IMG/VR virus record: IMGVR_UViG_3300022934_000023
Coordinates: 1-56,796 of that record
DNA length: 56,796 nt
Source of the DNA: a virus
Lineage: Duplodnaviria; Caudoviricetes
Direction: 5' to 3' (one strand)
A model generated the notes under the pieces. The model was not told the origin of the DNA. It saw only the letters and a list, made by a program, of their open reading frames with translations, and searched no databases. The position numbers and the translations under genes were made by a program. Positions 38,654 through 53,721 of this stretch are shown here, piece after piece; the stretch's first letter is position 1, and each line of letters begins with the position of its first letter.

Positions 38654-38656
38654 TCT
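38628..38656 (+). promoter_or_regulatory. sigma70-type promoter
   Basis: TTGACC-17 bp-TAATCT with upstream A tract. Confidence 0.65.
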
Positions 38657-38694
38657 TGCCGGACGTTTAGGACATACGAGAAGGACACAACGAC

Positions 38695-38949
38695 ATGAAA
38701 AAGCGAATACACATAAATCAGCACGTCATCCGGGCGAATGCCAAGAACGGCACAAACGACCCGGCAATCACTGTCAAAACATACCGTAACAATTATTACG
38801 CGCACCGGGTGGAAATCGACGGCGCGTCGTCTGTTGTTTACTCACCGGACAAACCGTTAAATTGTGGTGCGCGGGTATGGGTGGAAACTGACGAACCGGT
38901 AACGCTGCACGGCTTGGATAATGATAATTTTACACTGGTGATAGCATGA
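38695..38949 (+). CDS. Conserved phage hypothetical protein
   Basis: IH.NQH.I..N...PL.CGARVW.ET. Confidence 0.75.
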   Translation: MKKRIHINQHVIRANAKNGTNDPAITVKTYRNNYYAHRVEIDGASSVVYSPDKPLNCGARVWVETDEPVTLHGLDNDNFTLVIA

Positions 38950-39560
38950 AACAGGCTACGCTGATCGATCACGAAAAGATGATCTATAATATTTGCAGCG
39001 TCTATCGTGACGCCGACGAAACGCAACACGCGGAGGGCTTGTTGTGGTACGATAACGCACAAAAGGCGGCGCACGATATCGCGGTAAAATATGGCATCGC
39101 TGTTTACATTGTGGTGGCGGTGATCGCCGCGCTATCCCCAAATAACAAATGGTCTCGAAACGTGACAAACGCGGCGACGCTAATTGATGCTTTCCTGCGC
39201 GGCGACGGCATCGACTCGGTGAAAGTCTCGACCTACAACAAGATGAAGGCGAAGGCTTGGGACATCTTGGCGGCGCGTCCGGACTATGACGGCGCAAAAA
39301 AGATGCTCAAGGGCCAGAAGATCACGTCCTTTTTTATGGACATCATGGGCGAATTCAACGTCACCATTGATGGCCACGCGCGAAACATTGCCTACAATGA
39401 GCGGGTTGGATTGACCGACGACCGGACAAACATCGGCGTCCGTGAATACCGCGCTTTGCAAGCCGCTTACGAAGAGGCGGCGCGACGTGTTGGCCTCATG
39501 CCGTACCAGCTACAGGCGATCACTTGGCGCGTTTGGCGCGACCGGCACGGGATTACATGA
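38946..39560 (+). CDS. Early protein with possible HhH-glycosylase-like fold
   Basis: WY..A, ALSP...W..N, VTIDGHA, LQAITW. Confidence 0.6.
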   Translation: MKQATLIDHEKMIYNICSVYRDADETQHAEGLLWYDNAQKAAHDIAVKYGIAVYIVVAVIAALSPNNKWSRNVTNAATLIDAFLRGDGIDSVKVSTYNKMKAKAWDILAARPDYDGAKKMLKGQKITSFFMDIMGEFNVTIDGHARNIAYNERVGLTDDRTNIGVREYRALQAAYEEAARRVGLMPYQLQAITWRVWRDRHGIT

Positions 39561-39742
39561 GCGAAATTTTGTCAGCGCCATGCTTCACAAATATTGTCAG
39601 TGCCATGCTTCACTGTTTGGGGATCGGTTGGGGGTTTCCTGCGCCATTGTTCGGGGGCGGGACTGTCGGGCCGGTCGGATCGGCGGCGAGACGACGGGGC
39701 CAGCCGATCACCGACGCCAGCCAACTTTTTTTGGCTCAACTC

Positions 39743-39771
39743 TTCACAGGCTGCAAATCCTGTGCCATGAT
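39743..39771 (+). promoter_or_regulatory. sigma70-type promoter
   Basis: TTCACA-17 bp-CATGAT with TG extension. Confidence 0.55.
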
Positions 39772-39822
39772 TCACCCACCGGTCACGAGATGACCGGCAA
39801 CCAGCAACGAAAGGACATTATC

Positions 39823-40866
39823 ATGCTGGACATAATCGAACCTACCGCACGTTTTATCAGCCGGGGCGGCGGCACCTATGACCACACGCACACTGATCTG
39901 GCCGACGTGTCGATCTATTCGGACCTTGCCAAGATTCGGCGGGTGCCGATCGATGCTTTGACTAGCTGGGCCGACCGGACGCCTGACGGTGACGTGATCC
40001 GGGAGATTGTCGAGCCAACCCGGCTGGACGGTTTCTCGGCACTTGTTAACAAAGCGACCGGCGACCTGTTGCAGACCCGGCCTGTTGCCGACACCTACAA
40101 GCTAGTCAGCCATGACGAATTGTTCAGCCTACAGGCTAAAATGGTGGCGGAATCCGGCTTGCCGATCTCGAACCTTGAGATCATTGATCGGCTCTACGAT
40201 GGCGGACTCCGGGCGCACCGGACCATCATGTTCCATGACCTCGATGCTGTTGTTGGCAATTCTGACGACCGGGTTGTTTGCCGCATGGATGTTTTCAACT
40301 CTGTCGACATGTCTTGGTCATTCCAGATTTTTTCTGGTGCCTACCGTGACCTGTGCCGGAATACTTTGGTGTTCGGCGGCGAGAAGGCCTATCACCAGAA
40401 GCGCAAGCACACTAAGAACCTTAGCCCTGCCGCGCTTATCGGCAAGGCAACGATGGGGCTGGACTTCTGGCAGAACAACCGGGACGAAATGGACCGGATG
40501 CGCCAGACGCCACTGACCCGCGATCAATTCGGGTTGATCCTTGCGAATACGATCTGCGCCAAGCCGGGAGCGCCTAAGATTGAGGGCGTGTCGATCCCGG
40601 TCAACGAGCGGTTGCTTGGCTATCTGTTGCACCGGTACGACGAAGAGGTGGCAGAACTGGGCCGGACTCAATGGGCGGCCTATAACGCACTGACCCACTG
40701 GTCAACGCACACTGACACCGAATGGACCACCGACGAGGGGAAGACGTACAAGACCGGCAAGAAGGACGCCCGGACGCACCTTGTGCAACGCAAGCGATCC
40801 GACGATGTCCGGACCGTGCTGGATTCCCTTGTCTGGCAAGCTATGGGAGAGCCAGCTTTTGCATGA
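39823..40866 (+). CDS. DUF932-like protein
   Basis: Y.LV.H, NS.D.S, R..C.N, KHT, W.AYNALT.W.TH; GAAAGGAC RBS. Confidence 0.7.
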   Translation: MLDIIEPTARFISRGGGTYDHTHTDLADVSIYSDLAKIRRVPIDALTSWADRTPDGDVIREIVEPTRLDGFSALVNKATGDLLQTRPVADTYKLVSHDELFSLQAKMVAESGLPISNLEIIDRLYDGGLRAHRTIMFHDLDAVVGNSDDRVVCRMDVFNSVDMSWSFQIFSGAYRDLCRNTLVFGGEKAYHQKRKHTKNLSPAALIGKATMGLDFWQNNRDEMDRMRQTPLTRDQFGLILANTICAKPGAPKIEGVSIPVNERLLGYLLHRYDEEVAELGRTQWAAYNALTHWSTHTDTEWTTDEGKTYKTGKKDARTHLVQRKRSDDVRTVLDSLVWQAMGEPAFA

Positions 40867-40936
40867 CTTGATTGCATCACTATTCCGGCTTTGCTGGATA
40901 ATCCTGCTGGTGATTATCATTGCCAGCGTCATCTAA
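40859..40936 (+). CDS. 25-aa hydrophobic peptide (not on ORF track)
   Basis: TTG after GGGAG; MHDLIASLFRLCWIILLVIIIASVI. Confidence 0.45.
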   Translation: MHDLIASLFRLCWIILLVIIIASVI

Positions 40937-40952
40937 ACGAAAGGACAAAACG

Positions 40953-41432
40953 ATGACAACGAACAACACAACGACCACAACATTCCCGCCTCACCTGATC
41001 GAAGGCTTTAAGAAGCTGGCCGACGATTTCGAGGCACACATCCGGGCCGACGAGCGGTCACGCATTGCCGCCAAGTTTCGGGCTGAATTCCCCGAGAGGC
41101 CAGTTGCCAAGCCGGGGTTGTTCCCGATCACCGGCTTGCATGGTGAGCCGCTTAACGAAGTCGGCCAGCAGTCGAAGACCTACGACCCGGCGGCACCGTT
41201 TGATTATGCCGGACAGCGTCTGAATGAGAGCCACAGGCGCATGATTGCTTGGCTTTCATCCGGTACGTTTTTTGCGGTTCCGACACTGGCGGGGCATCTC
41301 AACGTCAAGAAGCAGACCGTCTATCAGTATCTGGACGCGATCAAGAGGGCTGGTTACAAGTTGGAAATCCGTAGCACCGGGAACAACAAGGGCGGCTATC
41401 GCAACATTTACCGGCTTGCCAAGACCGGCTAG
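40953..41432 (+). CDS. Winged helix-turn-helix protein
   Basis: LAGHLNVKKQTVYQYL..I...GY plus wing ending YRL. Confidence 0.75.
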   Translation: MTTNNTTTTTFPPHLIEGFKKLADDFEAHIRADERSRIAAKFRAEFPERPVAKPGLFPITGLHGEPLNEVGQQSKTYDPAAPFDYAGQRLNESHRRMIAWLSSGTFFAVPTLAGHLNVKKQTVYQYLDAIKRAGYKLEIRSTGNNKGGYRNIYRLAKTG

Positions 41433-41495
41433 TTTTGCAACAACATGGGGGCGGGGCGCGGTTGCCCCGTCTCAACCACACGAAAGGACGAAACG

Positions 41496-41717
41496 ATGAA
41501 AACATCTATCAAAAGCGAACTGACCACCTCTGAAGCTAAAGAGGTTTTTGCGATCACCGAGCGGGAAATCCGCACGATCCGCATAATGATCACCGGCATT
41601 GAAAATCAGATATCGGCCCTCGATGAATTCATGGATGCGATCGGGTTGCAAAAATGGATGGGCAGCAGCCCGCGTTCCGTTGCCGCGTGTGACTTCAAGA
41701 TCACGAAAGACGATTGA
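41496..41717 (+). CDS. Hypothetical early protein
   Basis: GAAAGGAC RBS; terminator follows. Confidence 0.7.
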   Translation: MKTSIKSELTTSEAKEVFAITEREIRTIRIMITGIENQISALDEFMDAIGLQKWMGSSPRSVAACDFKITKDD

Positions 41718-41729
41718 AACAGGAACAAC

Positions 41730-41755
41730 GCCCCGGCCTTTGTGCCGGGGTTTTT
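41730..41755 (+). terminator. Rho-independent terminator
   Basis: GCCCCGGC-CTTTGT-GCCGGGGT then T run. Confidence 0.85.
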
Positions 41756-41778
41756 GCTTAGGGAAGGGAAAAGGAACG

Positions 41779-42513
41779 ATGGAAATCATCACCAGAAAAG
41801 AAGCGAAGGCGGTGGGGTTGCAAAGGTACTTCACCGGGAAGCCGTGCAAACACGGCCATGTTTCCGAGCGTTTGACGGCTGGTGGCACGTGTCAGGAATG
41901 TTTAGATCGCAGATATTGGGGCGATAGAGAGCGCCCACAAAAGCATTCTGTCCCGGCGCATCTGCGGCAGTATTTGATGACTAGGAAAGAGGCACGGGCG
42001 TCAGGGCTTACAACCTATTTTACGGGACAGCCATGTAAAGAGGGGCATATTGCAGCCCGTTGGACTAGCAGCGCGCATTGTGTAATTTGCGCGAGAGCAA
42101 GGTGGGATCTTGCGTTTTGCTGTAACAAAAAGGCCCCCGTTCGCAGGACTGAAGAATATCGGTCAGAACATCAGAGGAAATATCGCGCGGTTAATGCCGA
42201 AAAAATACGTGCGCGCGTCAGGGAATATCAGATCGAAAATAAAGAAAGGTACATGGAGTATCAGACGGCATATCAGGCGGCGAGGCGTGTGTTGCAACGA
42301 AAGGCTCAACCACCGTGGGTAGATGTTGCAGAATTGAGAGCGATCTATAGAGCTATGAGGCGCAAGAACAGAAAAGCCGGAAAGATCGCATATCACGTCG
42401 ATCACATTGTGCCGCTGCAGGGCCAGAATGTTTGCGGCTTGCACGTGCCGTGGAATTTGCAAGTTATCTCAGCGCGTGAAAATCAACAAAAGGGCAACCG
42501 CATCGAAGCGTAA
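41779..42513 (+). CDS. HNH (homing-type) endonuclease
   Basis: HVDHIVPL..CGLHVPWNLQVI...N..K.N; two TRKEA..G...YFTG.PC..GH...R..C..C modules. Confidence 0.88.
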   Translation: MEIITRKEAKAVGLQRYFTGKPCKHGHVSERLTAGGTCQECLDRRYWGDRERPQKHSVPAHLRQYLMTRKEARASGLTTYFTGQPCKEGHIAARWTSSAHCVICARARWDLAFCCNKKAPVRRTEEYRSEHQRKYRAVNAEKIRARVREYQIENKERYMEYQTAYQAARRVLQRKAQPPWVDVAELRAIYRAMRRKNRKAGKIAYHVDHIVPLQGQNVCGLHVPWNLQVISARENQQKGNRIEA

Positions 42514-42560
42514 CGAAATACCCTCCCGGCGGGGTGAATAGCCGGGTTCCTCCCTAACTT

Positions 42561-42589
42561 GCCCCCGGCCCTAGTGCTGGGGGTTTTTT
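42561..42589 (+). terminator. Rho-independent terminator ending early region
   Basis: GCCCCCGGC-CCTAGT-GCTGGGGGT then T run. Confidence 0.85.
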
Positions 42590-43051
42590 ATGGGCGGGTG
42601 CTGCATTAATAGCTTGCGGCTTGAACTGGCGGGATAAATCGGCGGGCTGGGGTTTCGGGATATGCTGCGCTTTATGACCTCGAAAGACAGCCCGGCAGGT
42701 AACCCATATCGGAAATAATGTCAGCCCAACGTAAAAACCGCGCACGATGGCGCGGCATATAAGGGCGGTGGGTTCCCGGCTTGTTGCAAAACATCATGGC
42801 GCTTGTAGTCGGCCCATCATCGATGGTCTGACCCCGGTGTGGGGGTCGCTAGGGCCACCGGGGGGGTACCAGTACTTGTATGCAATCTCGACCTTGATTT
42901 GTGGATTTGGGGTTATCTGTATGGATATGTTTGCATGTCCCACTATATAACCCCTACGGGTAGACCCGTCTTCCCCTGCGGGAAAGTTTTGCAACTCCCT
43001 AACGGACTCTATCGGGTACTGTGGGGGTATATCCCGGCGGGTCTTAGACCC

Positions 43052-43080
43052 ATTGTACATACGAGAGTTTATTCTGTCAA
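43052..43080 (-). promoter_or_regulatory. Near-consensus leftward promoter into non-coding region
   Basis: TTGACA-17 bp-TACAAT on minus strand. Confidence 0.75.
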
Positions 43081-43119
43081 GTAAATTCGTCAGAACACCC
43101 CTCTGAAATAATTTTTTTG

Positions 43120-43148
43120 TTGACAATCAGCCTTATCGACCCTAATAT
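43120..43148 (+). promoter_or_regulatory. Promoter of packaging/head operon
   Basis: TTGACA-17 bp-TAATAT with AT-rich upstream tract. Confidence 0.8.
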
Positions 43149-43153
43149 GGTAC

Positions 43154-43242
43154 CGTGGGCTGTTTCACGTACGGTATATTCCCACACATCTGTGAAATAT
43201 TCTCTTGAATCACGGCGAATATGGCTAAGTGAGACGCCCACG
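43154..43242 (+). ncRNA. Structured leader / candidate ncRNA
   Basis: 14-bp basal stem with one bulge starting at the predicted transcription start. Confidence 0.5.
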
Positions 43243-43266
43243 CCTCCAACCCCGTTGCAAAAAACA

Positions 43267-43674
43267 ATGAATTTGCTCCCACAACAAAAAAAAGAGCGGG
43301 TACTTACCCCTCAACAGACCCAGTTTCTTGAACTTTTGTTCGAAAACGGTGGTAATGCCACGGCTGCAGCCATAGATGCAGGATATTCACGTGGTTCTGT
43401 CCAGTGGTTGAAGTCCACGTTGGCAGAAGAGATCATTGAACGCACAAAAAACATACTTTCGGTCAATGCTCTGAAGGCAGCAAACCGTATTGTCTCCACA
43501 ATTGACAATCCCGCCCCCGAACGAGGCGACGAACTAAGGCTACGAGCCGCAGAATCGTTGCTTAACCGCGTAGGAGTTGCAAAACAGGAGACCCACAACC
43601 ACAACGTACAAGCAATACACGGTGTGGTGTTGCTTCCCCCCAAGAATGAAGTAGTAATTGATGCGGAGACGTAA
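43267..43674 (+). CDS. terS: Terminase small subunit
   Basis: LT.QQ..F...GN...AA..AGYS; AA...L.R.G; upstream of terL. Confidence 0.8.
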   Translation: MNLLPQQKKERVLTPQQTQFLELLFENGGNATAAAIDAGYSRGSVQWLKSTLAEEIIERTKNILSVNALKAANRIVSTIDNPAPERGDELRLRAAESLLNRVGVAKQETHNHNVQAIHGVVLLPPKNEVVIDAET

Positions 43675-43679
43675 CGAAT

Positions 43680-43868
43680 ATGTACAAGTATGACAATCAA
43701 AGCACCAGTCTTACCCGAGCAACTGGCCCATACCGACCAAACACGTTGCATCCAAAGCCTAGACATATTGGAAAATATGATCCTACTACTGATGCAGATA
43801 CTGATAGATTTCCTATGAGGGGGCCACGTGGACGACCAGCAGCAATCAGCGCCGAAAAAGCGCGGTAG
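43680..43868 (+). CDS. Small hypothetical protein
   Basis: Fills terS-terL gap; competing frame 43690-43818 exists. Confidence 0.4.
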   Translation: MYKYDNQSTSLTRATGPYRPNTLHPKPRHIGKYDPTTDADTDRFPMRGPRGRPAAISAEKAR

Positions 43869-45528
43869 ACCTAAAAAAGACCCCAATGCGCCAAAGGCCA
43901 CATATAACCTCTCTACGAGGGAACGTGCGCGACGTGCGGCGACGAAACGTGTTAATGCCGCGAAACGTCGTGCAGTCAAGTCAAGCAAAGCCGCAGAGGA
44001 CAAACGACGCTATGCCCGAAAGCTGGAACAAACTACAACAAAGGTTGAAAAGGCTCTGGTTGGCAACGAGTCTGCCACAATCGATCTTGGGGATTTGGAT
44101 GTACTGCCAGATGCAGTCAGTGACCTTGTTAGCGAAAGCGAGATTGTCTTTCAGCCGAATGATGGCCCTCAGACAGACTTTCTCAGTGCGGGTGAGCGAG
44201 ACGTACTTTACGGCGGTGCTGCCGGTGGTGGAAAGAGCTTTGCACTTCTTGCTGATCCGCTACGTTACTGCCACAATCCTAATCATCGTGGTCTTCTTCT
44301 CCGTCGTACACTGGATGAACTCACCGAACTAATCGACAAGTCACGTCAACTGTACCCCAAAGCCTTTCCGGGTGCAAAGTTCCGGGAGTCAAAAACCACG
44401 TGGGTGTTTCCATCCGGAGCAACAATATGGTTTACGTACCTTGACAGAGATAAGGACGTAACCCGCTTTCAGGGTCAGGCGTTCAACTGGATAGGTATCG
44501 ATGAGATAACGCAATACCCCACACCGTACGTTTGGGATTACCTTCGTTCTCGTCTTCGCTCAACAGACCCTGAACTCCAACAACACCTCTATATGCGTTG
44601 CACAGCGAACCCCGGAGGCATTGGGGGCTGGTGGGTCAAAAAAACGTACATTGACGGCCTAGAACCCAACAAAGCCTTTCCCGCATTTGACATCGAGACA
44701 CAAAAGCCCTTTGTGTGGCCAGCAGGTCACGAGAAGGCAGGTCAACCGCTGTTCCTTCGCAAGTTTGTACCGGCGCGGCTGACCGACAATCCCTACCTGA
44801 TGGCAGACGGTCAGTACGAGGCGATGCTCAGGTCGCTCCCAGAAGTCGAGCGAAAGCGGCTTCTCGAAGGGGATTGGGATGTGGCGGAGGGAGCAGCCTT
44901 CCCAGAATTTTCAAGGAGTCGGCACGTTGTCGAACATTTCGAGTTACCTACCAATTGGCCCCGTATACGAGCGGCAGACTACGGCTATGCGAGTCCGTCG
45001 TGCGTTCTGTGGGGGGCTATTGACTGGGATAACAATATCTGGGTTTATCGCGAACTATATGCTAAACACTTGACAGCGGAAGAGTTAGCTGATAAAATAA
45101 TGGAAGCAGAACAACTCGACCCAACACCGCACTACACCGTGTTGGATTCGTCGTGTTGGAACAAGACAGGATTCGGTCCGTCGATTGCCGAAACAATGAT
45201 GAGAGCCGGAGTCCGCTGGACACCTTCTGATCGTAATCGCATACAGGGCAAGATGGAAGTTCATCGCCGTCTTGCTAATGATCCCTACACAGAAGAACCT
45301 CGATTACGTATCTTCTCCAGTTGCCAAAACATAATTAAGCAACTGGCTGGCATTCCGCTTTCTAAGTCCAACAGTGAAGATGTAGATACTAAGGCAGAGG
45401 ATCACGCATACGACGCTCTGCGATACATGGTAATGACACGCATGAGCGGATACACATCAATACACAAACAACTTGGTGCAATTAAGAGTCAGGTGTACCA
45501 AGTCCAAGATGAGACGTTCGGATACTGA
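43828..45528 (+). CDS. terL: Terminase large subunit
   Basis: YGGAAGGGKS, IGIDE, TANPGG, DYG, DH.YDALRY. Confidence 0.95.
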   Translation: MDDQQQSAPKKRGRPKKDPNAPKATYNLSTRERARRAATKRVNAAKRRAVKSSKAAEDKRRYARKLEQTTTKVEKALVGNESATIDLGDLDVLPDAVSDLVSESEIVFQPNDGPQTDFLSAGERDVLYGGAAGGGKSFALLADPLRYCHNPNHRGLLLRRTLDELTELIDKSRQLYPKAFPGAKFRESKTTWVFPSGATIWFTYLDRDKDVTRFQGQAFNWIGIDEITQYPTPYVWDYLRSRLRSTDPELQQHLYMRCTANPGGIGGWWVKKTYIDGLEPNKAFPAFDIETQKPFVWPAGHEKAGQPLFLRKFVPARLTDNPYLMADGQYEAMLRSLPEVERKRLLEGDWDVAEGAAFPEFSRSRHVVEHFELPTNWPRIRAADYGYASPSCVLWGAIDWDNNIWVYRELYAKHLTAEELADKIMEAEQLDPTPHYTVLDSSCWNKTGFGPSIAETMMRAGVRWTPSDRNRIQGKMEVHRRLANDPYTEEPRLRIFSSCQNIIKQLAGIPLSKSNSEDVDTKAEDHAYDALRYMVMTRMSGYTSIHKQLGAIKSQVYQVQDETFGY

Positions 45529-47462
45529 TGGCAAAAAAGACCGTAAAAGATTTATCTATTGAGATAGTAAAAAAGGCAGAGGCGGGTACTCTGACTATCG
45601 GTGAAGCACTGGATTACGTATCTAATCCTAGTGTCCCTATGCCTGAGTCGTACAAGTCAATTAACAAAGAAGGCGTCCACGTTGCCCGTGCCCAGATGAA
45701 TACGGTACGCAACAACATGAAGACGCTTAAAAAGCTGGCTCCTGATGACTTTCCTCTCGGACTAGACACGCCTCTCAAAGATATGCGGAATGCAGAAATC
45801 GTGTTTCTGTTCCGTCGTGATGGTTCTCCTGATCTTTCGAACCGAGCCTATAACTATCAAATCTTCGAAAACATTCTGTTTCACAACCTCGACAAGTATG
45901 GTCTTTCAGCCATCACTGAGGATGTGGGCGACGGCATTAAAGAGTCCATGTATCCGCGCCTTGCGGGTGCAGGTAATCCAATGGGTACGCAGCGTACAGG
46001 TCTTGCTGGCGAACGTCCTATGGAGGGACTGCTTGAGAAGGAAAAGCTGGATGCAATATACGCGGATGCTCTTCCTGAAGTCGAAGCAAAGTACAACGCT
46101 AATACACGCCGACTCGTAGAATACCATCGCAACACCTTCCAGCGTCCAGAACAACTAGTAGGTTTGAAGGTTACAGATGTCATCGTCGATGGCGACAACA
46201 TAACCGTCAAGGGCAAGAAGACAACCAAGACAGATCACAAGGGTCGTCCAGAGTTGACCTTTAAGGCAAGTAGCCCTATGGGCCGCTTGCTGACAGAAGC
46301 AAAGAATTCCAGCACCTCTGATCTTCTCTTTGATACTGACATCGACACGTTCAATGATGCGTTTAATGATACGGTCGGAAAACGACTTGCCGAATACAAA
46401 GATGTGCTTCCACAGGCGGACGTTAAAGTCACTCTGCCCAATGGTAAAGTAGAAATTCAGCAACGCGCAGTTACAACTCCGTCTGCTATTCGTTCGATTG
46501 TCCCACACTACCTGCATAAGCAACTCAAAGTCAACAAAGACGTTGTTCAGGGCTTGATGGGACACATCAATGCCGATACGATTGACCGTAACTATATTGG
46601 CATCTCAGCAAATAAAGACCTCCCTCTGGTTCTGGAAAATCCTGAAAACTTTGCCCAGAGTGGATTCGGTGGCGGAACTAACGCCCAGCATTTTGATCGC
46701 AGTCTTCTCAGTGAAGAACAGCTTGAGTTAATTGCAGGCGAACTTACTGAAGCCGAGACACAAGAGGCAAAGGCACGTACTGCTGTTGCTGTTCGTGTAC
46801 AGGCAACAGAAGCTCTTCAAACACAAAAAGCGGTTATAGAACGTGCTGCACAGATGCCAGAAGAAATTGCTGCTGCAACCACTGTCGCAGAAGGCGAAGC
46901 GCAAATAGCGCAAGTGCAGTCTGAGGCTCGTTCTAGCGCACGAAAAGAGTCTGCTGCAAACAGAGGTAAAGCTCACCGCAACGCATTGCGCGAAATGCTA
47001 GACCCACGTAATCTCAAGTCTTCGGCGCTGGCTGGGCTGGCTACTGCAGGTACTCTGCTGTCAAAGGCACCCAATCCCGTGTTTGATTTAGTAGGCGGTC
47101 TTGTAGATAAAGAGAGCTACGACATCGCAGAACAAAAGGGTCGTACCTTTGTGTCCGAGTTGACAGGTCAGCCGGAAGATAGCTTTCTGTCACGAATAGG
47201 CGGGGGAGCAGGCGTAGTAGGTGAGATGCTTACCGGTGCTGTTGCTGACCCCGAGGGTGCAGCCCGTACAAGCGCCCAGATGATGTCGCTGCTGGGCAAG
47301 ACCCCGATTCTTAATTTGACGAGGGGCATTCCTGATGCGGCCCCGCCACAGACAGGTACACTTGAGGCAGAAGACGCTGCGTCTAATGTCCAAGACGTAG
47401 AAAACCGCGCACGTAGCGGTCAAACCACGTCCCTGCTGGACGTACAACCACAAACTTTATAG
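45528..47462 (+). CDS. Tyrosine recombinase domain protein with long extensions
   Basis: T.QRPEQL..L...D, K-rich hairpin, SAIRS, LMGH, RNY. Confidence 0.75.
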   Translation: MAKKTVKDLSIEIVKKAEAGTLTIGEALDYVSNPSVPMPESYKSINKEGVHVARAQMNTVRNNMKTLKKLAPDDFPLGLDTPLKDMRNAEIVFLFRRDGSPDLSNRAYNYQIFENILFHNLDKYGLSAITEDVGDGIKESMYPRLAGAGNPMGTQRTGLAGERPMEGLLEKEKLDAIYADALPEVEAKYNANTRRLVEYHRNTFQRPEQLVGLKVTDVIVDGDNITVKGKKTTKTDHKGRPELTFKASSPMGRLLTEAKNSSTSDLLFDTDIDTFNDAFNDTVGKRLAEYKDVLPQADVKVTLPNGKVEIQQRAVTTPSAIRSIVPHYLHKQLKVNKDVVQGLMGHINADTIDRNYIGISANKDLPLVLENPENFAQSGFGGGTNAQHFDRSLLSEEQLELIAGELTEAETQEAKARTAVAVRVQATEALQTQKAVIERAAQMPEEIAAATTVAEGEAQIAQVQSEARSSARKESAANRGKAHRNALREMLDPRNLKSSALAGLATAGTLLSKAPNPVFDLVGGLVDKESYDIAEQKGRTFVSELTGQPEDSFLSRIGGGAGVVGEMLTGAVADPEGAARTSAQMMSLLGKTPILNLTRGIPDAAPPQTGTLEAEDAASNVQDVENRARSGQTTSLLDVQPQTL

Positions 47463-47472
47463 GGAGGCATTA

Positions 47473-47691
47473 ATGCCGAACAACAACTACAACTACGGCG
47501 AAGCATACATTAACGCCGCTTGCACTACGTCTGTTGATGATCAGATGGGTGCCAATCAGCTTTACCGTGAAGGTCTCGAATTCGACACCAAGACCGCACA
47601 GGGCGTGCTGACTGAGGACATGCCTAAGAAGATGTCCAAGACTGCAGTTGATCCTTCGCTGATGAAGATGGCTGAACAACGCGACTACTAA
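47473..47691 (+). CDS. Small head-module protein
   Basis: AGGGAGG RBS. Confidence 0.75.
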   Translation: MPNNNYNYGEAYINAACTTSVDDQMGANQLYREGLEFDTKTAQGVLTEDMPKKMSKTAVDPSLMKMAEQRDY

Positions 47692-47704
47692 GAGGTAGGT
47701 CGAT

Positions 47705-49819
47705 ATGGCTGACAACTTTCTGGAACCGGCTGACGATACAGCAGTTCCGCTAGAAAACCCGGAAGAACAGTTTCCGGGCCTAGCGGCGTACGTCAGGGGT
47801 AAATTTGAAGACGCAGAGAACGGACGTTTCTCGTACGAACAGCGATGGTTGCAAGCGTACAAGAACTTCCGTGGCATCTACGATACAACTACACAGTACC
47901 GTGATTCTGAGCGGTCAAAGGTGTTCATCAAGATCACCAAAACCAAGGTGCTGGCAGCATACGGTCAGATCGTAGACATTCTGTTTGCTAACAAGAAGTT
48001 TCCGATGGTTGTTGAGCCGACTCCCGTACCGGAAGGTATCGCGGAGTTTGCACACCTTGAGACTCCGCTGGATCAGATGGTAGAAGACCCGTACGGCTAC
48101 GCAGGCGACGGGCGAGAAATGCCGTTTGGTGCAACAGAGGCAACTCCGTCTATGGACTTTCTTGGTGGGTTGCAGCAGCGATACGCTAATGCACCTATCC
48201 AACCCGGTCCTGCCCTCATGGGCGAACCCCAGATCAGTCCGGCTCAAAAGGCTGCACTGAACATGGAGAAGCAAATCCATGACCAACTCCTTGACACAAG
48301 TGCTGTTAATGTTCTTCGATCTTCTATCTTTGAGTCCGCACTTCTGGGAACTGGTATTGTAAAGGGTCCGTTCAATCACTACAAGCGAATCCACAAGTGG
48401 CAGTCGGGTCCGGAGGGTCGGCAGTACGTTCCCTACGAAAAGGTAGTTCCACGTATTGAACACGTATCTCCGTGGGACTTTCATCCCGATCCGTCTGCAA
48501 CAAACGTAGACGACTGTGAGTACGTTATTCAACGTCACCGCATGAATCGACAGCAGCTTCGTGGGCTGATTGCACAACCGTATTTCTACAAAGATGCAAT
48601 CGAAGAATGCCTTGCAAAAGGCCCGAACTACGAAGACAAGTACTACGAAGATACCATCCGTGAGGATGAGACTGAGCCGTACTATCAGGGCAATCGCTAC
48701 GAAGTACTAGAATACTGGGGTGTTATTGACTCCAAGATGGCCGATGAGGCAGGTCTAGACGTAGCTGACAGCATGGATGAGTTCGATCAGGTTCAGGTCA
48801 ACATCTGGATTTGTGGCACAATGGTGCTGCGCTGCGTTCTCAACCCGTTTACACCTGCACGCATTCCCTACCAAGTGTTCCCGTACGAGATCAACCCCTA
48901 TCAAATCTGGGGCGTTGGTATTGCTGAGAACATGGAAGACGCGCAGATGTTGATGAACGGCCACGTTCGTATGGCTATCGACAACCTTGCTCTTGCTGGC
49001 AACCTCGTATTCGACGTGGACGAAGCATCTCTTGTGCCGGGACAGAACATGGATATCTTCCCCGGTAAGATATTCCGTCGTCAGTCGGGCGTCACTGGTA
49101 CAGCAATCAACGGTCTCAAGTTTCCTAACACGGCACCTGAGAACATCCAGATGTACCAGATCAGCCGTCAGCTTGCAGACGAAGAGACAGGTCTGCCATC
49201 CATCATGCACGGACAGACGGGCGTAGCAGGCACAGGACGCACAGCATCCGGCCTCTCTATGCTGCTTGGCGGTGCAAGCCTGTCACTCAAGACGGTAATC
49301 AAGAACATTGACGACAGCCTTCTCAAGCCGCTTGGTGAGGCGTATTTCCAGTGGAACATGCAGTTCAACGATGACTCTCCTGACATCGAAGGCGACCTAG
49401 AGATCAAGCCACGCGGTGTAGCAGCCGTTATGCAAAAAGAAGTACGAAGTCAGCGTTTGACTACGCTGCTGCAAACGGTATCGAATCCGATGCTGGCACC
49501 GTTCATCAAGATTCCGAATCTGATGCGCGAACTCGCTATCGCACAGGACATTGATCCAGACAGTCTCGTCAACGATGTTAACGAGGCACAGATTTTCGCA
49601 GAGATGTTGAAGGGATTAGCCAATGCTCAACAAGAAGCAAGCCAGCAAGGTCAGCCAACTGGTGACCAACAAGGAAGCGTGGGACAGTCTGGAGGAGTAC
49701 CTCCGGGAGCAAATCCAGATGACGCTTCGGGCGTTGGTGGCGGCACAATCGGAACTGGAAGTGTTCCGGCTGCAGGGGAAAATAACTTCACTGGAACAGA
49801 TCAAGGGGCTGAAGGCTGA
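47705..49819 (+). CDS. Portal protein
   Basis: TKTKVLAAYGQ, GTGI.KGP, RTASG.SML; size and position. Confidence 0.88.
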   Translation: MADNFLEPADDTAVPLENPEEQFPGLAAYVRGKFEDAENGRFSYEQRWLQAYKNFRGIYDTTTQYRDSERSKVFIKITKTKVLAAYGQIVDILFANKKFPMVVEPTPVPEGIAEFAHLETPLDQMVEDPYGYAGDGREMPFGATEATPSMDFLGGLQQRYANAPIQPGPALMGEPQISPAQKAALNMEKQIHDQLLDTSAVNVLRSSIFESALLGTGIVKGPFNHYKRIHKWQSGPEGRQYVPYEKVVPRIEHVSPWDFHPDPSATNVDDCEYVIQRHRMNRQQLRGLIAQPYFYKDAIEECLAKGPNYEDKYYEDTIREDETEPYYQGNRYEVLEYWGVIDSKMADEAGLDVADSMDEFDQVQVNIWICGTMVLRCVLNPFTPARIPYQVFPYEINPYQIWGVGIAENMEDAQMLMNGHVRMAIDNLALAGNLVFDVDEASLVPGQNMDIFPGKIFRRQSGVTGTAINGLKFPNTAPENIQMYQISRQLADEETGLPSIMHGQTGVAGTGRTASGLSMLLGGASLSLKTVIKNIDDSLLKPLGEAYFQWNMQFNDDSPDIEGDLEIKPRGVAAVMQKEVRSQRLTTLLQTVSNPMLAPFIKIPNLMRELAIAQDIDPDSLVNDVNEAQIFAEMLKGLANAQQEASQQGQPTGDQQGSVGQSGGVPPGANPDDASGVGGGTIGTGSVPAAGENNFTGTDQGAEG

Positions 49820-49853
49820 CTACGAAGCAGCGGTGAGTATGCGAGATGAATGA
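49623..49853 (+). CDS. Small post-portal helical protein overlapping portal end
   Basis: W..L..Y...E..RLQG motif; coupled to next gene. Confidence 0.65.
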   Translation: MLNKKQASKVSQLVTNKEAWDSLEEYLREQIQMTLRALVAAQSELEVFRLQGKITSLEQIKGLKADYEAAVSMRDE

Positions 49854-51756
49854 AATAGTTCAAGGCTACATATCGACAGTCCTGACAGAGAGAGCGACAG
49901 GGGCACCTAGTCCGTACGACCAAGACACGGGCATGAGTCGTAGCTTTCTTCCCTATCGGGGTACAGCACCGGCAAGTAGTCCTGCTGCCGCTGCAATCGC
50001 AGCAGCCTTTTCAGAACGAGACGACGCTGTCTACAGGGGAGACCTTGTTGTTACAGGAATAGGCACAGACGTTAGGGATCGCTTTGGAGGTATGCCTCGT
50101 AGTGTTACCGGAGCGATTTCTGGAACAGGTTTGGGTCCGTTTGCTGCACTGGGGGCAGCAATGTCGTCAAATAATCTCACTAGAATTCAAGAAAAACAGA
50201 GAGCCGGTGAAGAAGGCTATGCTGTCGGTATGCTTAACGGGCGTATTGTAGGCGTCTCCCCCGGAATAGGCGGTCCCGTGCTGTCAGGTATGTTGCCTGA
50301 AGGGATAAGCGTAAAGCAACGACAGAGCATTGCACAACAGCTTCTTGAGATGTCCGGATCAAGATTCCAGCCTGATGAAGGCATAGGAGGATCAGCAGCG
50401 GACAACCCTAACCTGAAGACCGGACGTACCTACTCTGAGACAAGATTCGGCGCAGGAACTTACGAAGGCGGGACAATCCCCCCTGACAGTATCAACCCCT
50501 CTGCGTTTGTCATGGGTATCCCCCCTGCAGGTGATCGAGGGGATGATCCATCAAGTATTAGGTTCATAAATATTGGGGCAGATCGTCCCGATCCTAACTA
50601 CCGTCCGTCTTTGAATACCTTTGACTATTATGGTGATCCCGGTGGCGACACGGGTCCGGCACCTACAGGCGGGGCAACGACTCCACGTGATGATTCTGAC
50701 AGAGATCAGCCTAGAAACGAGTATTCAATAGGGGGCGGTGGCAGCAACAATCCTGCGGACAGAGGCTACTCCATGATGGCTGATGGCGGTACTGTTCAAG
50801 GAACAGGCTTCGTTTCCGGCTCTCCTGACAACTATACCAAAGCACAGACAGTAGCCGATGACGAGAATCGTCAAGTGCGCGAAGGAGCATTTGTTCTTAA
50901 CGCGCCTACTACCGAAAAGCTTCAAAAAGCCGGACTGTTGCCTACCGGGGTTGACAATTCAGGTAAAAACACTACAATAAAAGCAAGCAAAGGTGGTTTG
51001 ATGGACGTAGCCCTGTCCAAGGGTGAGTACGTTATCGAACCCGAAGAAGCCCAGCGCATTGGGTACTCATTTCTCGAACAACTTAATAATGGTGGCAAGG
51101 CCGAAGTAGATCGTCGGCAAGCTGCTGCTGATGGCGGGTTCATCAAGGGTTACGCAGAAGGCGGAGAACTACCTCTTGCTAAGATTGAACTTAGCGACGC
51201 CACTAAAAACAAATTCAATACTTTTTTGAAGAGTCGTCGTCAACGTGCTGATGTTGAAAGGCTCATTGATAACATGGACGACAGAGAGCGTCTTGCTGTA
51301 CTGGCCTTGGCTGAAACAACTGCAGCTACTGACTCCGTCGAATCTATGATGGGCGTAGGTCAAACTGCTATTAACCGTGCGCGTACAAACCGTCCAAGCT
51401 TTTCTAAAGTAAACGATCTTGCATCTGTCATGAAGCAGCGATCATCTCGCGGCTCTGGAAGCAAGATGTTTCAGTACGACGGACTTGAACCCGGCATTCT
51501 TAGTAAGAGACTGAAAGAGGTAATGGAGGGACGTGTTCCGGGCGCGGTAACAAAGACGTTTTCTGCGGCAGATAATCTGTTAAATCCTGAAACAGAGTCT
51601 GACCCCGTATTACCATTTGATGTAATGTTTTACACAAAACCTAACGCACCACTAGCAAAGGATTTTGAAAAAAATCCTAAAATGCGTTTTGTTAAAAGTT
51701 ATGGAGGGCATGATTACTACGCTCTCGACGCGGCCCCAGAAGGGACTCGCAAGTAA
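49846..51756 (+). CDS. Virion protein with C-terminal SleB-like cell-wall hydrolase domain
   Basis: LAE...V....INR...FQY...FY...GGH.YY; xxxGG and LS.GEYV motifs. Confidence 0.65.
   Translation: MNEIVQGYISTVLTERATGAPSPYDQDTGMSRSFLPYRGTAPASSPAAAAIAAAFSERDDAVYRGDLVVTGIGTDVRDRFGGMPRSVTGAISGTGLGPFAALGAAMSSNNLTRIQEKQRAGEEGYAVGMLNGRIVGVSPGIGGPVLSGMLPEGISVKQRQSIAQQLLEMSGSRFQPDEGIGGSAADNPNLKTGRTYSETRFGAGTYEGGTIPPDSINPSAFVMGIPPAGDRGDDPSSIRFINIGADRPDPNYRPSLNTFDYYGDPGGDTGPAPTGGATTPRDDSDRDQPRNEYSIGGGGSNNPADRGYSMMADGGTVQGTGFVSGSPDNYTKAQTVADDENRQVREGAFVLNAPTTEKLQKAGLLPTGVDNSGKNTTIKASKGGLMDVALSKGEYVIEPEEAQRIGYSFLEQLNNGGKAEVDRRQAAADGGFIKGYAEGGELPLAKIELSDATKNKFNTFLKSRRQRADVERLIDNMDDRERLAVLALAETTAATDSVESMMGVGQTAINRARTNRPSFSKVNDLASVMKQRSSRGSGSKMFQYDGLEPGILSKRLKEVMEGRVPGAVTKTFSAADNLLNPETESDPVLPFDVMFYTKPNAPLAKDFEKNPKMRFVKSYGGHDYYALDAAPEGTRK
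50951..50978 (+). promoter_or_regulatory. Intragenic sigma70-type promoter
   Basis: TTGACA-16 bp-TACAAT. Confidence 0.55.
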
Positions 51757-51759
51757 TTA

Positions 51760-51834
51760 GTCAGCTACCCGCTACGTTCATTCGCGGCCCTGACACAACC
51801 GGAGCGGCTACCTACACGCCAAAGTAGCCCCGCT
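51760..51834 (+). promoter_or_regulatory. Twin-hairpin RNA element in scaffold leader
   Basis: Two hairpins with the same CUAC/CC internal loop, next to the GAGGT RBS. Confidence 0.6.
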
Positions 51835-51849
51835 AATGAGGTAAATAAA

Positions 51850-53709: not shown

Positions 53710-53721
53710 AGGGAGGCTTAA

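What the first reader, a model, noticed from the sequence alone, without database searches (positions are those of the whole stretch)
45528..47462. Tyrosine recombinase fused to an ejection-protein-like tail inside the head operon
Seen: catalytic pattern R (46143), Lys-rich hairpin, S-A-I-R in place of HxxR, LMGH (46554-46565) and Y (46593). The 644-aa ORF is coupled to terL and lies before the portal, so it should be expressed late. The C-terminal ~270 aa form an Ala/Glu helix followed by Gly/Ala/Leu-rich segments resembling internal virion proteins. No repressor, excisionase or att-like tRNA fragment is adjacent. Known: integrases usually sit in lysogeny/early modules; the same fold serves telomere resolvases and topoisomerase IB. 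Inference: a packaged, co-injected enzyme that circularises, resolves or relaxes the genome, or a packaging-coupled resolvase.
Basis: partly seen in the sequence, partly recalled or inferred. Interest (0 to 1): 0.8.

Follow-up and report, generated by a model that had tools for sequence, protein, structure and literature searches.

The report
Hypervariable tyrosine recombinase between terminase and portal
A group of abundant, uncultured marine phages all carry, between their DNA-packaging and portal genes, a fast-evolving integrase-like DNA recombinase with a long unexplained tail, and what it does in a phage with no other lysogeny genes is still open.

Summary
The 644-aa ORF (45528-47462, +) starts on the last base of the terL stop codon and lies before a 72-aa gene and the portal.

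- **Fold:** residues 1-370 fold confidently as a two-domain tyrosine recombinase. The best structural matches are XerH, lambda Int, Cre and phage integrases. No protelomerase or topoisomerase IB appears among the matches listed.
- **Active site:** in 200 distinct family members, R206 and R322 are each kept in 199, Y356 in 186 and K238 in 168. The His of HxxR is never His at the aligned position.
- **Tail:** residues 396-491 form one long helix. Residues 491-644 are an acidic Gly/Ala/Pro-rich tail with no confident fold, no transmembrane segment and no detectable relative among known virion proteins.
- **Host phage:** the window is an HMO-2011-type podovirus.
- **Distribution:** in a portal-selected sample of relatives, 65 of 65 loci that could be judged carry such a gene in this slot. 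More distant HMO-2011-type phages lack it.
- **Variability:** both the recombinase part and the tail occur in several deeply divergent types, swapped between phages whose TerL and portal are 77-96% identical.
- **Lysogeny signs:** I found no other integrase, repressor, tRNA-like att fragment or prophage copy.

Verdict: a real, probably active site-specific recombinase in a new architecture and genomic context. Packaging into virions is unsupported but not excluded.

The parts
43828..45528 (+). Large terminase subunit (TerL); its stop codon shares its last base with the start codon of the recombinase gene
   Evidence: PHROG_979 E 2.4e-61, Pfam Terminase_6N E 6.7e-8; junction sequence TGATG
45070..45098 (+). 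Sigma-70-type promoter-like element (TTGACA, 17 nt, TAAAAT, with TG before the second hexamer) embedded in the terL coding sequence, about 430 nt upstream of the recombinase start
   Evidence: Consensus scan, 11 of 12 positions (the total count of such sites equals the chance expectation). Synonymous codons under both hexamers are frozen in 116 distinct relatives (TTG 100%, ACA 98%, GAT 99%, AAA 97%, ATA 97%), against 27-80% at most neighbouring codons. The hexamers are absent at the homologous place in 7 of 7 relatives that lack the recombinase gene
45528..47462 (+). The whole 644-aa gene: tyrosine recombinase fused to a helical stalk and a flexible tail
45528..46040 (+). Residues 1-171: helical N-terminal (core-binding-type) domain and the invariant linker motif MYPxLAG...GTQRTGLAGERPM
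   Evidence: pLDDT is mostly 75-95, with one block at 63. Foldseek alignments of 340-415 columns to the two-domain structures of XerH, lambda Int and Cre. Invariant columns in alignment A2
46041..46640 (+). Residues 172-371: catalytic domain with R206, the K238 hairpin, S319-x-x-R322, H346 and Y356
   Evidence: PF00589 match at residues 172-358; residue conservation in 200 distinct relatives
46713..47000 (+). Residues 396-491: long Ala/Glu/Gln-rich helix (stalk or coiled coil)
   Evidence: One helix at pLDDT 77-94 when the tail is folded alone; two helices, 396-441 and 443-490, in the full-length model
47001..47459 (+). Residues 492-644: acidic (pI 4.5) Gly/Ala/Pro-rich tail. Conserved motifs: PGP, GGxAGVxGEMxTGxVADPEG, IPDPxP and a C-terminal ...TS(L/M)...(F/L) motif. 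No confident fold
47473..47691 (+). 72-aa gene before the portal; part of the conserved backbone, not specific to the recombinase
   Evidence: Present after the recombinase gene in the related loci. Its last 40 residues are 40% identical to HTVC033P gp78, the ORF just before the portal of a phage that lacks the recombinase (pairwise E 2e-8)
47705..49819 (+). Portal protein
   Evidence: Pfam SU10_portal E 1.1e-27; 47-55% identical to the portals of HTVC033P, HMO-2011 and CRP phages

Best explanation
The gene encodes a catalytically competent 'simple' tyrosine site-specific recombinase: a helical core-binding domain plus a catalytic domain, as in Xer, Cre and phage integrases. It carries a stalk helix of about 95 residues and a flexible acidic tail of about 150 residues.

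It is the only recombinase of a clade of uncultured HMO-2011-type marine podoviruses. These phages lack the small integrase that other HMO-2011-type phages carry next to the primase gene.

My best reading is that it is this clade's own site-specific recombinase acting on phage DNA. The most likely reaction is integration into a host site, or Cre-like joining of two copies of a phage site. I infer that it is made in small amounts, by translational coupling to TerL.

The recombinase part and the tail behave as exchangeable cassettes, much as integrase modules are swapped among lambdoid or P2-like phages. The stalk and tail would then serve oligomerisation, control of the reaction, or docking to a partner.

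Shown: the fold, the conserved active site, the fixed position, presence throughout the clade, and the mosaic variability. Inferred: enzymatic activity, the DNA substrate, the expression level and timing, and the role of the tail.
For: **Fold**
- AlphaFold2 pLDDT is mostly 75-95 for residues 1-370.
- Foldseek against the PDB lists XerH (5jk0, 5jjv; E 1.5e-5 to 1.5e-4, probability 1.00, 369-415 columns), lambda Int, Cre and Tn1549 Int.

**Active site**
- In 200 distinct family members of at least 520 aa: R206 199 of 200, R322 199, Y356 186, K238 168 (plus 7 Arg), H346 156 (plus 26 Arg).

**Fixed position**
- terL lies directly upstream in 51 of 53 loci found with the protein, and the portal downstream in 43 of 53. 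The remaining loci are cut by contig ends.
- The same slot holds the divergent types: terL upstream in 32 of 34 loci, portal downstream in 28 of 34.

**Present throughout the clade**
- Of the 80 best portal relatives (72-92% identity), 65 include both the terL end and the portal start. All 65 hold an ORF of 528-766 aa between them that hits the family by BLAST at E<=1e-5.

**Only recombinase**
- The window has one PF00589 match, this gene.
- A relative that CheckV rates 100% complete has no other match.
- HMO-2011 itself has a 292-aa integrase beside its primase gene, and its terL is followed directly by the portal.

**Mosaicism**
- The recombinase domain is 38-77% identical where TerL and portal are 77-95% identical.
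- L002 has an unrelated-looking N-terminus with an 82% identical tail. L067 has a 93% identical recombinase domain with a 31% identical tail.
- The divergent N-termini still carry recombinase motifs.

**Transcription**
- Contigs from two RNA libraries, identical to the window, cover 46581-46831 and bridge 47443-47873. Capsid and scaffold genes are the deepest. This is weak evidence: DNA can be present in RNA libraries.
Against: - No recombination site was found. There is no tRNA gene or tRNA-like fragment, and no lox- or dif-like inverted repeat next to or inside the gene.
- The gene is flanked by 0 and 10 nt of non-coding DNA, so an att site could not travel with the cassette unless it lies inside the coding sequence.
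- No prophage copy was found. There were 0 relatives in one genome for each of 185,579 species, in a motif-seeded scan for the X-type only, and 0 of 401 genomes sampled from one bacterial class, with a profile.
- No repressor or excisionase family was found by Pfam among the 10 ORFs tested.
- No att-like junction appeared in contigs of two DNA runs laid on 37000-56796.
- The 270-residue C-terminal extension is universal in the family, and an ordinary integrase does not need one.
- Residues 1-380 have pI 6.7, unusually low for a DNA-binding recombinase.
- The Pfam match is below its curated cut-off.
Confidence: 0.45

Rival explanations
1. Packaged or packaging-machine-associated recombinase. 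The stalk and tail would dock the enzyme to the procapsid, portal or terminase. It would either be carried into the cell with the DNA, to circularise or integrate the genome before any gene is expressed, or act on DNA during packaging.
For: - The gene has a fixed place between terL and the portal, and every clade member judged has it (65 of 65).
- A long helix plus a flexible tail with short conserved motifs is present in every type, even where the recombinase domain has been replaced.
- The tail is predicted with low confidence on its own, as expected of a part that folds on a partner.
- Fast, mosaic evolution is typical of proteins that meet the host. A review titled 'Viral Ejection Proteins: Mosaically Conserved, Conformational Gymnasts' appeared in a search listing (PMC8954989; I saw only the title and the start of the abstract).
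- The enzyme part is neutral and the tail acidic (pI 6.7 and 4.5).
Against: - The tail has no homology to any PHROG family at E<=1, no transmembrane segment, and no paralogue of the tail in the window.
- The tail is itself hypervariable. It is often undetectable by tblastn between phages whose portals are 77-95% identical, which is unexpected for a part that docks onto conserved portal or TerL.
- The slot between terL and the portal holds unrelated small ORFs in HTVC033P, so position alone does not make a gene structural.
- The lack of its own ribosome-binding site suggests few copies.
- There are no proteomic data, and no cultured phage carries the gene.
Confidence: 0.25
2. A lytic-cycle DNA-processing enzyme that neither integrates the phage nor is packaged. 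Possibilities are a Cre-like enzyme that circularises or monomerises genomes at a phage site near the packaging start, or a junction-resolving or relaxing enzyme that clears replicated DNA for headful packaging.
For: - It has a simple two-domain recombinase fold closest to XerH and Cre, with no sign of an arm-binding domain.
- It is co-oriented with, and adjacent to, terS and terL.
- A 750-nt non-coding region with blocks conserved among relatives lies 2.3 kb upstream, before terS.
- No lysogeny genes or prophages were found.
- From my own recall, not from any call: in phage P1 the cre gene and loxP lie next to the pac site and help circularise terminally redundant DNA, and T4 endonuclease VII associates with the portal.
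Against: - No lox-like site was found.
- The extreme diversity of the recombinase domain is hard to explain for a housekeeping role on the phage's own DNA, because each swap would need a matching change of site elsewhere in the genome.
- Related HMO-2011-type phages with the same packaging genes do without it.
- The window already encodes an endonuclease VII-like protein at 41599-42513 (PHROG_1035 E 8.9e-21).
Confidence: 0.15
3. A decayed or non-enzymatic integrase remnant, kept for a structural or regulatory role.
For: - The Pfam score is below its cut-off.
- The HxxR histidine is missing throughout the family: Ser 109, Thr 31, Tyr 16, Gly 13, Lys 13 of 200.
- The enzyme part has a neutral pI.
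Against: - Both arginines are kept in 199 of 200 distinct sequences and the tyrosine in 186 of 200, in a family whose mean column identity is about 27%.
- The ORF is intact in all loci examined.
Confidence: 0.05

Closest known systems
Xer-type and Cre-type 'simple' tyrosine recombinases (XerH of Helicobacter, PDB 5jk0/5jjv; Cre of phage P1)
   Same: Two-domain architecture (helical core-binding domain plus catalytic domain). These are the best structural matches. The Arg-Lys-Arg-His-Tyr set is in register.
   Different: There is no detectable sequence similarity: phmmer and a profile search against PDB sequences found no recombinase. Ser replaces the HxxR histidine. There is a 270-residue stalk and tail. 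No site of the dif or lox kind was found. The gene sits in the packaging and head operon of a podovirus.
Phage integrases (Pfam PF00589, PHROG_1), including the 292-aa integrase gp09 of phage HMO-2011
   Same: Same superfamily, with weak Pfam and PHROG matches. All named BFVD structural matches are integrases or DNA breaking-rejoining-domain proteins. It is the only recombinase of its phage, as an integrase would be.
   Different: It is not derived recognisably from the HMO-2011-type integrase: hhalign probability is 1%, although the motifs align in register. It lies between terL and the portal, not beside the primase. It has no adjacent att region and no excisionase or repressor, and it is twice the usual length. 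From the passages I read of the published survey of this phage group, subgroups IV-X have 'no identifiable lysogeny-related genes' (PMC9038755).
Telomere resolvases (TelN, TelK, ResT) and type IB topoisomerases
   Same: Similar overall length to TelN and TelK (recalled). Same catalytic superfamily. Some family members carry Tyr or Lys where HxxR has His, as telomere resolvases and topoisomerase IB do (recalled).
   Different: Neither appears among the listed Foldseek matches. No palindromic tel-like site adjoins the gene. The N-terminal domain is the helical recombinase type.
Enzymes packaged into phage heads (N4 virion RNA polymerase, T4 internal proteins, P1 Dar proteins). A functional analogy only, named from recall
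   Same: An enzyme gene inside the head and packaging gene block, fast and mosaic evolution, and an appended non-catalytic part that could act as a targeting signal.
   Different: There is no homology to any of them and no evidence of packaging. No tyrosine recombinase turned up as a virion protein in the two literature searches I ran (listings only).
Coiled-coil motif of large serine integrases. An analogy only, from recall
   Same: A long helical element appended to a recombinase in a phage that has no separate directionality factor.
   Different: A different catalytic superfamily and a different position in the protein; nothing here was tested.

Membership tests
Tyrosine recombinase superfamily (DNA breaking-rejoining fold; Pfam PF00589) | Catalytic-domain fold | tested here: met
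   The AlphaFold2 model is confident over residues 172-370. Foldseek probability is 1.00 to XerH, lambda Int, P2 Int and the Cre catalytic domain and to phage integrases in BFVD.
Tyrosine recombinase superfamily (DNA breaking-rejoining fold; Pfam PF00589) | Pfam PF00589 score at or above the curated cut-off (27.1 bits) | tested here: inconclusive
   24.0 bits for the protein. 26.3 bits in the six-frame search, counted as over the cut-off (27.5) only with neighbouring stretches. Relatives P0033, P0035, P0048 and others carry a precomputed PF00589 hit, and P0131 scores 32.8 bits.
Tyrosine recombinase superfamily (DNA breaking-rejoining fold; Pfam PF00589) | Catalytic residues Arg-I, Lys (beta-hairpin), His-II/Arg-II (HxxR), His/Trp-III, Tyr | tested here: inconclusive
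   R206 199 of 200, K238 168, R322 199, H346 156 (Arg in 26), Y356 186. His-II is absent: Ser 109, Thr 31, Tyr 16, Gly 13, Lys 13, Arg 6 of 200. So five of six positions are met and one is not.
Tyrosine recombinase superfamily (DNA breaking-rejoining fold; Pfam PF00589) | Forms a covalent 3'-phosphotyrosine intermediate and exchanges strands at a defined site | not testable with these tools
   This needs purified protein and DNA substrates.
Temperate-phage integrase with a lysogeny module (lambda Int type) | attP next to the gene, often matching a tRNA 3' end | tested here: not met
   Flanks are 0 nt (terL) and 10 nt (next gene). No tRNA and no tRNA-like Rfam match at E<=1 in the whole window.
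Temperate-phage integrase with a lysogeny module (lambda Int type) | Repressor and/or excisionase in the genome | tested here: not met
   Pfam on 10 ORFs, 8 of them between 36.7 and 41.7 kb, found only one HTH_11 protein (40920-41432) and no CI, Cro or Xis family. Small ORFs of unknown family remain.
Temperate-phage integrase with a lysogeny module (lambda Int type) | Integrated copies in host genomes | tested here: not met
   0 relatives in 185,579 species genomes (motif-seeded scan, X-type motifs only). 0 of 401 genomes sampled from one class. The 7 MAG contigs with a related portal lack the gene. A 75.8-kb metagenome contig that holds a relative could not be read beyond 3.7 kb.
Temperate-phage integrase with a lysogeny module (lambda Int type) | N-terminal arm-binding domain | tested here: inconclusive
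   The N-terminus is helical. The best matches are XerH and lambda Int residues 75-356, which lack the arm-binding domain. No direct test was made.
Telomere resolvase / topoisomerase IB | Best structural match to TelK, TelA, ResT or TopIB, and a palindromic target next to the gene | tested here: not met
   None appears among the Foldseek matches listed. No long palindrome lies in 45400-47720.
Podovirus ejection / internal virion proteins | Homology to a known ejection-protein family, or membrane-inserting segments | tested here: not met
   PHROGs at E<=1 gave 0 families for residues 380-644. The highest Kyte-Doolittle 19-residue mean is 0.96. The Atlas gave no usable hit.
Podovirus ejection / internal virion proteins | Physical presence in purified virions | not testable with these tools
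   No cultured phage has the gene, and no proteome was available.

The most novel reading that the evidence does not exclude
The phage packages its own recombinase. The stalk and tail would load a few copies into the procapsid or onto the portal. The copies would enter the cell with the DNA and circularise or integrate the genome before any phage gene is expressed, as retroviruses do with their integrase. The rapid turnover of both parts would then reflect an arms race at the moment of DNA entry.
Probability: 0.2. Interest if true: 0.85.

Novelty: new variant of a known kind. Interest (0 to 1): 0.6.

Why it matters
HMO-2011-type phages are among the most abundant marine phage groups. The published survey treats most subgroups as lacking lysogeny genes, from the passages I read of PMC9038755; its supplements were not available.

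This work shows that a large uncultured clade of them always carries a cryptic recombinase with an intact active site, in a place where nobody looks for one. One of two things follows. Either these phages have a hidden temperate or episomal option, which would change how their ecology is modelled. Or a tyrosine recombinase has been recruited to a step of the lytic cycle (DNA entry, circularisation or packaging), which would be a new use of this enzyme family.

The family also offers many deeply divergent simple recombinases as candidates for new site specificities. The frozen promoter inside terL gives a concrete handle on how the gene is expressed.

Tried and rejected
- **Binding of the tail to the portal.** The complex job (recombinase residues 490-644 against portal residues 20-660, both as alignments) returned 'no answer', score 0.00 against a mark of 0.32, and the controls were not run. 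It counts neither for nor against binding.
- **Sequence searches against PDB chains.** phmmer found nothing at E<=10. The profile of A2 gave only coiled-coil noise.
- **Protein Atlas.** No usable hit for residues 380-644.
- **NCBIfam and PADLOC.** No family for this protein or for three divergent relatives.
- **Hairpin as a conserved element.** The 11-bp stem at 45470-45504, just before the start codon, is intact with at most one mismatch in only 12 of 124 distinct relatives. Rejected.
- **lox-, dif- or tel-like sites.** Short inverted repeats within 30-60 nt were sought in and around the gene and in the terS-upstream region. Only weak, non-conserved pairs turned up. The imperfect 21-nt pair at 42909-42954 was not followed further.
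It is real: 66 matches against 38.7 expected, concentrated at 36.0-38.5 kb. It lies 7 kb from the gene, and nothing links it to the recombinase.
- **Reads.** Contigs of two DNA runs and two RNA libraries were laid on 37000-56796 only. No joint or loose end recurred at one place in a way that suggests an att junction. Uncovered parts and small word shares are no evidence.
- **The 75.8-kb metagenome contig holding a relative (L089).** It could not be read beyond the 3.7 kb fetched. Whether it is a prophage with host flanks is open.
- **Tools and files not available.** Supplementary tables of PMC9038755, which list the uncultured genomes and their genes, were closed and may already record this gene.
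- **Foldseek on the tail-only model.** Not run, because the model's confidence is too low (pTM 0.29).

Full report
**1. The observation**

The ORF exists exactly as described: 45528..47462 on the + strand, 644 aa. TerL (43828..45528) ends in TGA, and the last base of that stop is the A of the ORF's ATG (TGATG). No Shine-Dalgarno sequence precedes this start. The next two genes, a 72-aa ORF at 47473 and the portal at 47705, have GGAGG-like sites.

**2. It is a tyrosine recombinase**

- Pfam PF00589 matches residues 172-358 over nearly the whole profile (positions 6-167 of 172). The score is 24.0 bits, under the 27.1-bit cut-off.
- The six-frame search of the window gives 26.3 bits (27.5 with neighbouring stretches). 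It finds no second match anywhere in the 56.8 kb.
- PHROG_1 'integrase' matches at E 3.2e-5.
- Sequence searches against PDB chains find nothing, so the protein is very divergent.
- An AlphaFold2 model built on 28 relatives is confident for residues 1-370 (pLDDT mostly 75-95) and poor beyond 380.
- Foldseek against the PDB returns XerH-difH complexes first (E 1.5e-5, probability 1.00, 369-415 aligned columns). Next come lambda Int, Cre, Tn1549 Int and P2 Int. The alignments cover both the core-binding and the catalytic domain.
- No telomere resolvase or type IB topoisomerase is among the matches listed.
- Against predicted viral structures, all named matches of the 50 listed are integrases or DNA breaking-rejoining-domain proteins.

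**3. The active site is under selection**

I pooled the database relatives of at least 520 aa with the ORFs found between terL and portal in related contigs. This gave 200 distinct sequences, which I aligned. Counts at the window's catalytic positions:

| Position | Kept | Other |
|---|---|---|
| R206 | 199 of 200 | |
| R322 | 199 of 200 | |
| Y356 | 186 of 200 | |
| K238 | 168 of 200 | Arg in 7; 23 gaps |
| H346 | 156 of 200 | Arg in 26 |
| 319 (His of HxxR in classical enzymes) | never His | Ser 109, Thr 31, Tyr 16, Gly 13, Lys 13, Arg 6 |

Some of the misses at Y356 and K238 are probably alignment errors in very divergent rows, but I did not check them one by one. A related 28-sequence alignment has a mean column identity of about 27%. 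Two arginines kept in 199 of 200 sequences at that level of divergence argue strongly for an active enzyme.

**4. The C-terminal 270 residues**

- Folded alone with 37 sequences, residues 396-491 form one long helix at pLDDT 77-94. The rest is short helices at low confidence (pTM 0.29).
- In the full-length model the same stretch is two helices.
- The tail (491-644) is acidic (pI 4.5) and rich in Gly, Ala, Leu and Pro. No 19-residue window has a Kyte-Doolittle mean above 0.96, so there is no sign of a transmembrane helix.
- Conserved pieces are PGP, GGxAGVxGEMxTGxVADPEG, IPDPxP and a short motif near the end.
- PHROGs at E<=1 gives no family for residues 380-644. The window has no paralogue of the tail. 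The Atlas has no usable hit.

**5. The phage**

- The window is an IMG/VR virus record. Its first 300 nt repeat at 56011-56310 with 87% identity. The assembly therefore wraps round a genome of about 56 kb, or else ends in a tandem pair of 177-aa paralogues.
- Gene content:
  - + strand, 43.1 kb through the end and on to 25.4 kb: terS, terL, portal, scaffold-like protein, major capsid protein and tail fibres.
  - - strand, 26.9-36.7 kb: ribonucleotide reductase, Cas4-like exonuclease, family A DNA polymerase, DnaB-type helicase and primase.
- The portal is 45-55% identical to those of Pelagibacter phages HTVC033P, HTVC115P, HTVC103P and HTVC104P, Puniceispirillum phage HMO-2011 and the Roseobacter CRP phages. 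It is an HMO-2011-type podovirus.
- In HMO-2011 the portal follows terL directly. Its 292-aa integrase lies next to the primase gene.
- In HTVC033P four small ORFs lie between terL and the portal. The last of them is homologous to the window's 72-aa gene. That small gene is therefore backbone, and the recombinase is a single-gene occupant of a slot that varies among relatives.
- From the passages I read, the published survey of this group places integrases upstream of the replication module in subgroups I-III. It says subgroups IV-X have no identifiable lysogeny genes (PMC9038755). The supplements could not be read.

**6. Distribution**

- No cultured phage has the gene: tblastn against 50,697 records gave no match.
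- The large protein collections hold 87 clusters at 90% identity and 57 representatives at 50% identity. All carry only metagenome-type sources, and a few are named 'integrase' by an automatic pipeline.
- In 53 IMG/VR loci found with the protein, terL lies directly upstream in 51 and the portal downstream in 43. The others are cut by contig ends.
- To remove the bias of searching with the protein itself, I searched with a portal alignment. Of 587 relatives, the best 80 (72-92% portal identity) were returned. Of these, 65 include both the terL end and the portal start. All 65 have an ORF of 528-766 aa in between, and every one hits the family at E<=1e-5.
- Seven more distant contigs binned into MAGs (portal 52-73% identical) show no such gene. 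The five that include both the terL end and the portal start (portal 52-63% identical) have gaps of only about 100-1150 nt between the terL and portal matches.

The gene is thus universal in one clade and absent outside it.

**7. Hypervariability and module exchange**

- Where TerL and portal are 77-95% identical to the window's, the recombinase domain is 38-77% identical. The tail is often undetectable by tblastn.
- The two parts move independently:
  - L002 has TerL 96% and portal 94% identical, with an N-terminus that neither BLAST nor a family HMM recognises, yet a tail 82% identical.
  - L067 has a recombinase domain 93% identical with a tail 31% identical.
- At least five further N-terminal types share the tail module (P0064/74/126; P0053/65/66; P0077/78; P0131; P0137).
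  - By hhalign against the window's type they score 64%, 1%, 98%, 0.2% and 4% probability. The catalytic motifs align in register in four of the five comparisons; the P0137 alignment stops before them.
  - PF00589 is weak in P0053, P0065 and P0066 and above the cut-off in P0131.
  - In a joint alignment R206 and R322 are invariant.
- Loci of three of these types occupy the same slot: terL is upstream in 32 of 34 and the portal downstream in 28 of 34, the rest being cut.

**8. Tests of the integrase reading**

- The window has no other recombinase.
- A relative rated 100% complete has no classical integrase either.
- This is compatible with the gene being the clade's integrase, and swapping of integrase cassettes is familiar from temperate phages.
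- Against it, none of the following was found:
  - no tRNA or tRNA-like fragment
  - no non-coding DNA beside the gene
  - no repressor or excisionase family
  - no relative in one genome for each of 185,579 species, by a motif-seeded scan
  - none in 401 genomes sampled from one bacterial class, with a profile
  - no att-like junction in the contigs of two DNA runs laid on 37000-56796

All of these negatives are weak. The hosts are unknown, marine MAGs rarely contain prophages, and only a third of the genome was laid. A 75.8-kb contig that holds a relative could be a prophage, but it could not be read.

**9. Tests of the packaged-enzyme reading**

Nothing positive could be obtained. The one complex job gave no answer (see Tried and rejected). 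For the idea speak the fixed place in the packaging and head block, presence throughout the clade, and an appended stalk and tail kept in architecture through every replacement of the enzyme part. Against it, the tail is itself hypervariable, it has no known relatives, and the slot is not reserved for structural genes in relatives.

**10. Expression**

- The promoter scan found no more sites than chance: 9 against 9.7 expected.
- One site deserves attention: TTGACA, 17 nt, TAAAAT, with an upstream TG, at 45070-45098 inside terL.
- In 116 distinct relatives the synonymous codons under both hexamers are frozen: His CAC 100%, Leu TTG 100%, Thr ACA 98%, Asp GAT 99%, Lys AAA 97%, Ile ATA 97%. At most neighbouring codons the dominant codon holds 27-80%.
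- At the homologous place in 7 of 7 relatives that lack the recombinase gene, the hexamers are absent.
- A second consensus-like site (TTGACA, 17 nt, TAATAT) lies before terS at 43120-43148.

The gene may therefore be read from its own host-type promoter as well as from the operon promoter. 'Late' expression is not established.

Contigs from two metatranscriptome libraries, identical to the window, cover part of the gene and bridge its end to the portal start. The capsid and scaffold genes are the deepest. That fits transcription together with the head genes, but DNA carry-over cannot be excluded.

**11. Verdict**

The finding is real.

My estimates:
- About 0.85 that it is an active site-specific DNA breaking-rejoining enzyme.
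- 0.45 that it serves as the clade's own recombinase for integration or Cre-like joining, without being packaged.
- 0.25 that it is packaged or tied to the packaging machine.
- 0.15 that it has another lytic-cycle DNA-processing role.
- 0.05 that it is a non-enzymatic remnant.

It is a new variant of a known kind of enzyme. Its substrate and its place in the life cycle are open.

Noticed in passing
window 45070-45098 (+), inside terL: A textbook sigma-70 promoter (TTGACA, 17 nt, TAAAAT, TG-extended) is embedded in coding sequence. Synonymous codons under both hexamers are frozen in 116 distinct relatives, and the element is absent at the homologous place in 7 of 7 relatives that lack the recombinase gene.
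   Followed up: yes
window 1-300 and 56011-56310: The two ends of the record repeat each other at 87% identity, and each end carries a 177-aa ORF (34-567 and 56044-56577). Either the assembly wraps round a circular map of about 56.0 kb through a strain variant, or there are two tandem paralogues.
   Followed up: partly
window 36000-38500, especially 38321-38496; also 42713-42748: TGTCAG is enriched (66 matches against 38.7 expected; 0 of 100 shuffles reach 66). It is part of a longer repeated word, AAATATTGTCAGCC, clustered in the region between the divergent replication genes and the + strand genes. These could be iterons, operators or phage promoters.
   Followed up: partly
window 42514-43267 (non-coding, before terS): A 750-nt non-coding region. 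It holds a strong terminator-like hairpin at 42561-42584 and a block at 42840-42935 that is about 80% identical in relatives. It also holds further invariant blocks (such as GGGTGTATATCCCGGCGGG), an imperfect 21-nt inverted repeat at 42909-42954, and a TTGACA/TAATAT promoter-like site at 43120-43148. Its function is unknown; it is a candidate regulatory RNA, pac region or recombinase site.
   Followed up: partly
window 42517-42589: A weak Rfam match to the Rhodobacter sRNA SorX (28.4 bits against a gathering score of 46.6; E 0.0084) overlaps the terminator hairpin. It is probably just the hairpin.
   Followed up: no
window 49846-51756 (+): A 636-aa gene directly after the portal, with a Gly-rich N-terminal half and a weak C-terminal match to cell-wall hydrolase (Pfam Hydrolase_2, E 0.046). 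It has no PHROG or NCBIfam family, and it too evolves fast among relatives (26-74% identity). It is a candidate internal virion lysin.
   Followed up: no
window 32307-34383 (-): The family A DNA polymerase appears as two overlapping ORFs: a 3'-5' exonuclease part (33781-34383, PF01612) and a polymerase part (32307-33857). HMO-2011 has one 680-aa gene. This could be a split gene, a frameshift or an assembly error; I did not examine it.
   Followed up: no
locus L089 (metagenome contig of 75,803 nt, relative at 41.8-43.5 kb): A relative of the recombinase lies on a contig about 20 kb longer than the phage genome. It could be a prophage with host flanks or a wrapped assembly. Only 3.7 kb could be read.
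   Followed up: partly
window 47495-47617 and 49735-49768: Contigs of a DNA run and an RNA library share a variant that skips or replaces 121 nt inside the 72-aa gene. Several runs share a replaced segment of about 30 nt in the portal's C-terminal region. This is strain microdiversity.
   Followed up: no
window 41599-42513 (+): A 304-aa protein with two N-terminal repeats of a small PHROG_1081 domain and an endonuclease VII/HNH-like C-terminus lies just before the terS-upstream region. It may be a packaging-associated junction resolvase or a homing-type nuclease.
   Followed up: no
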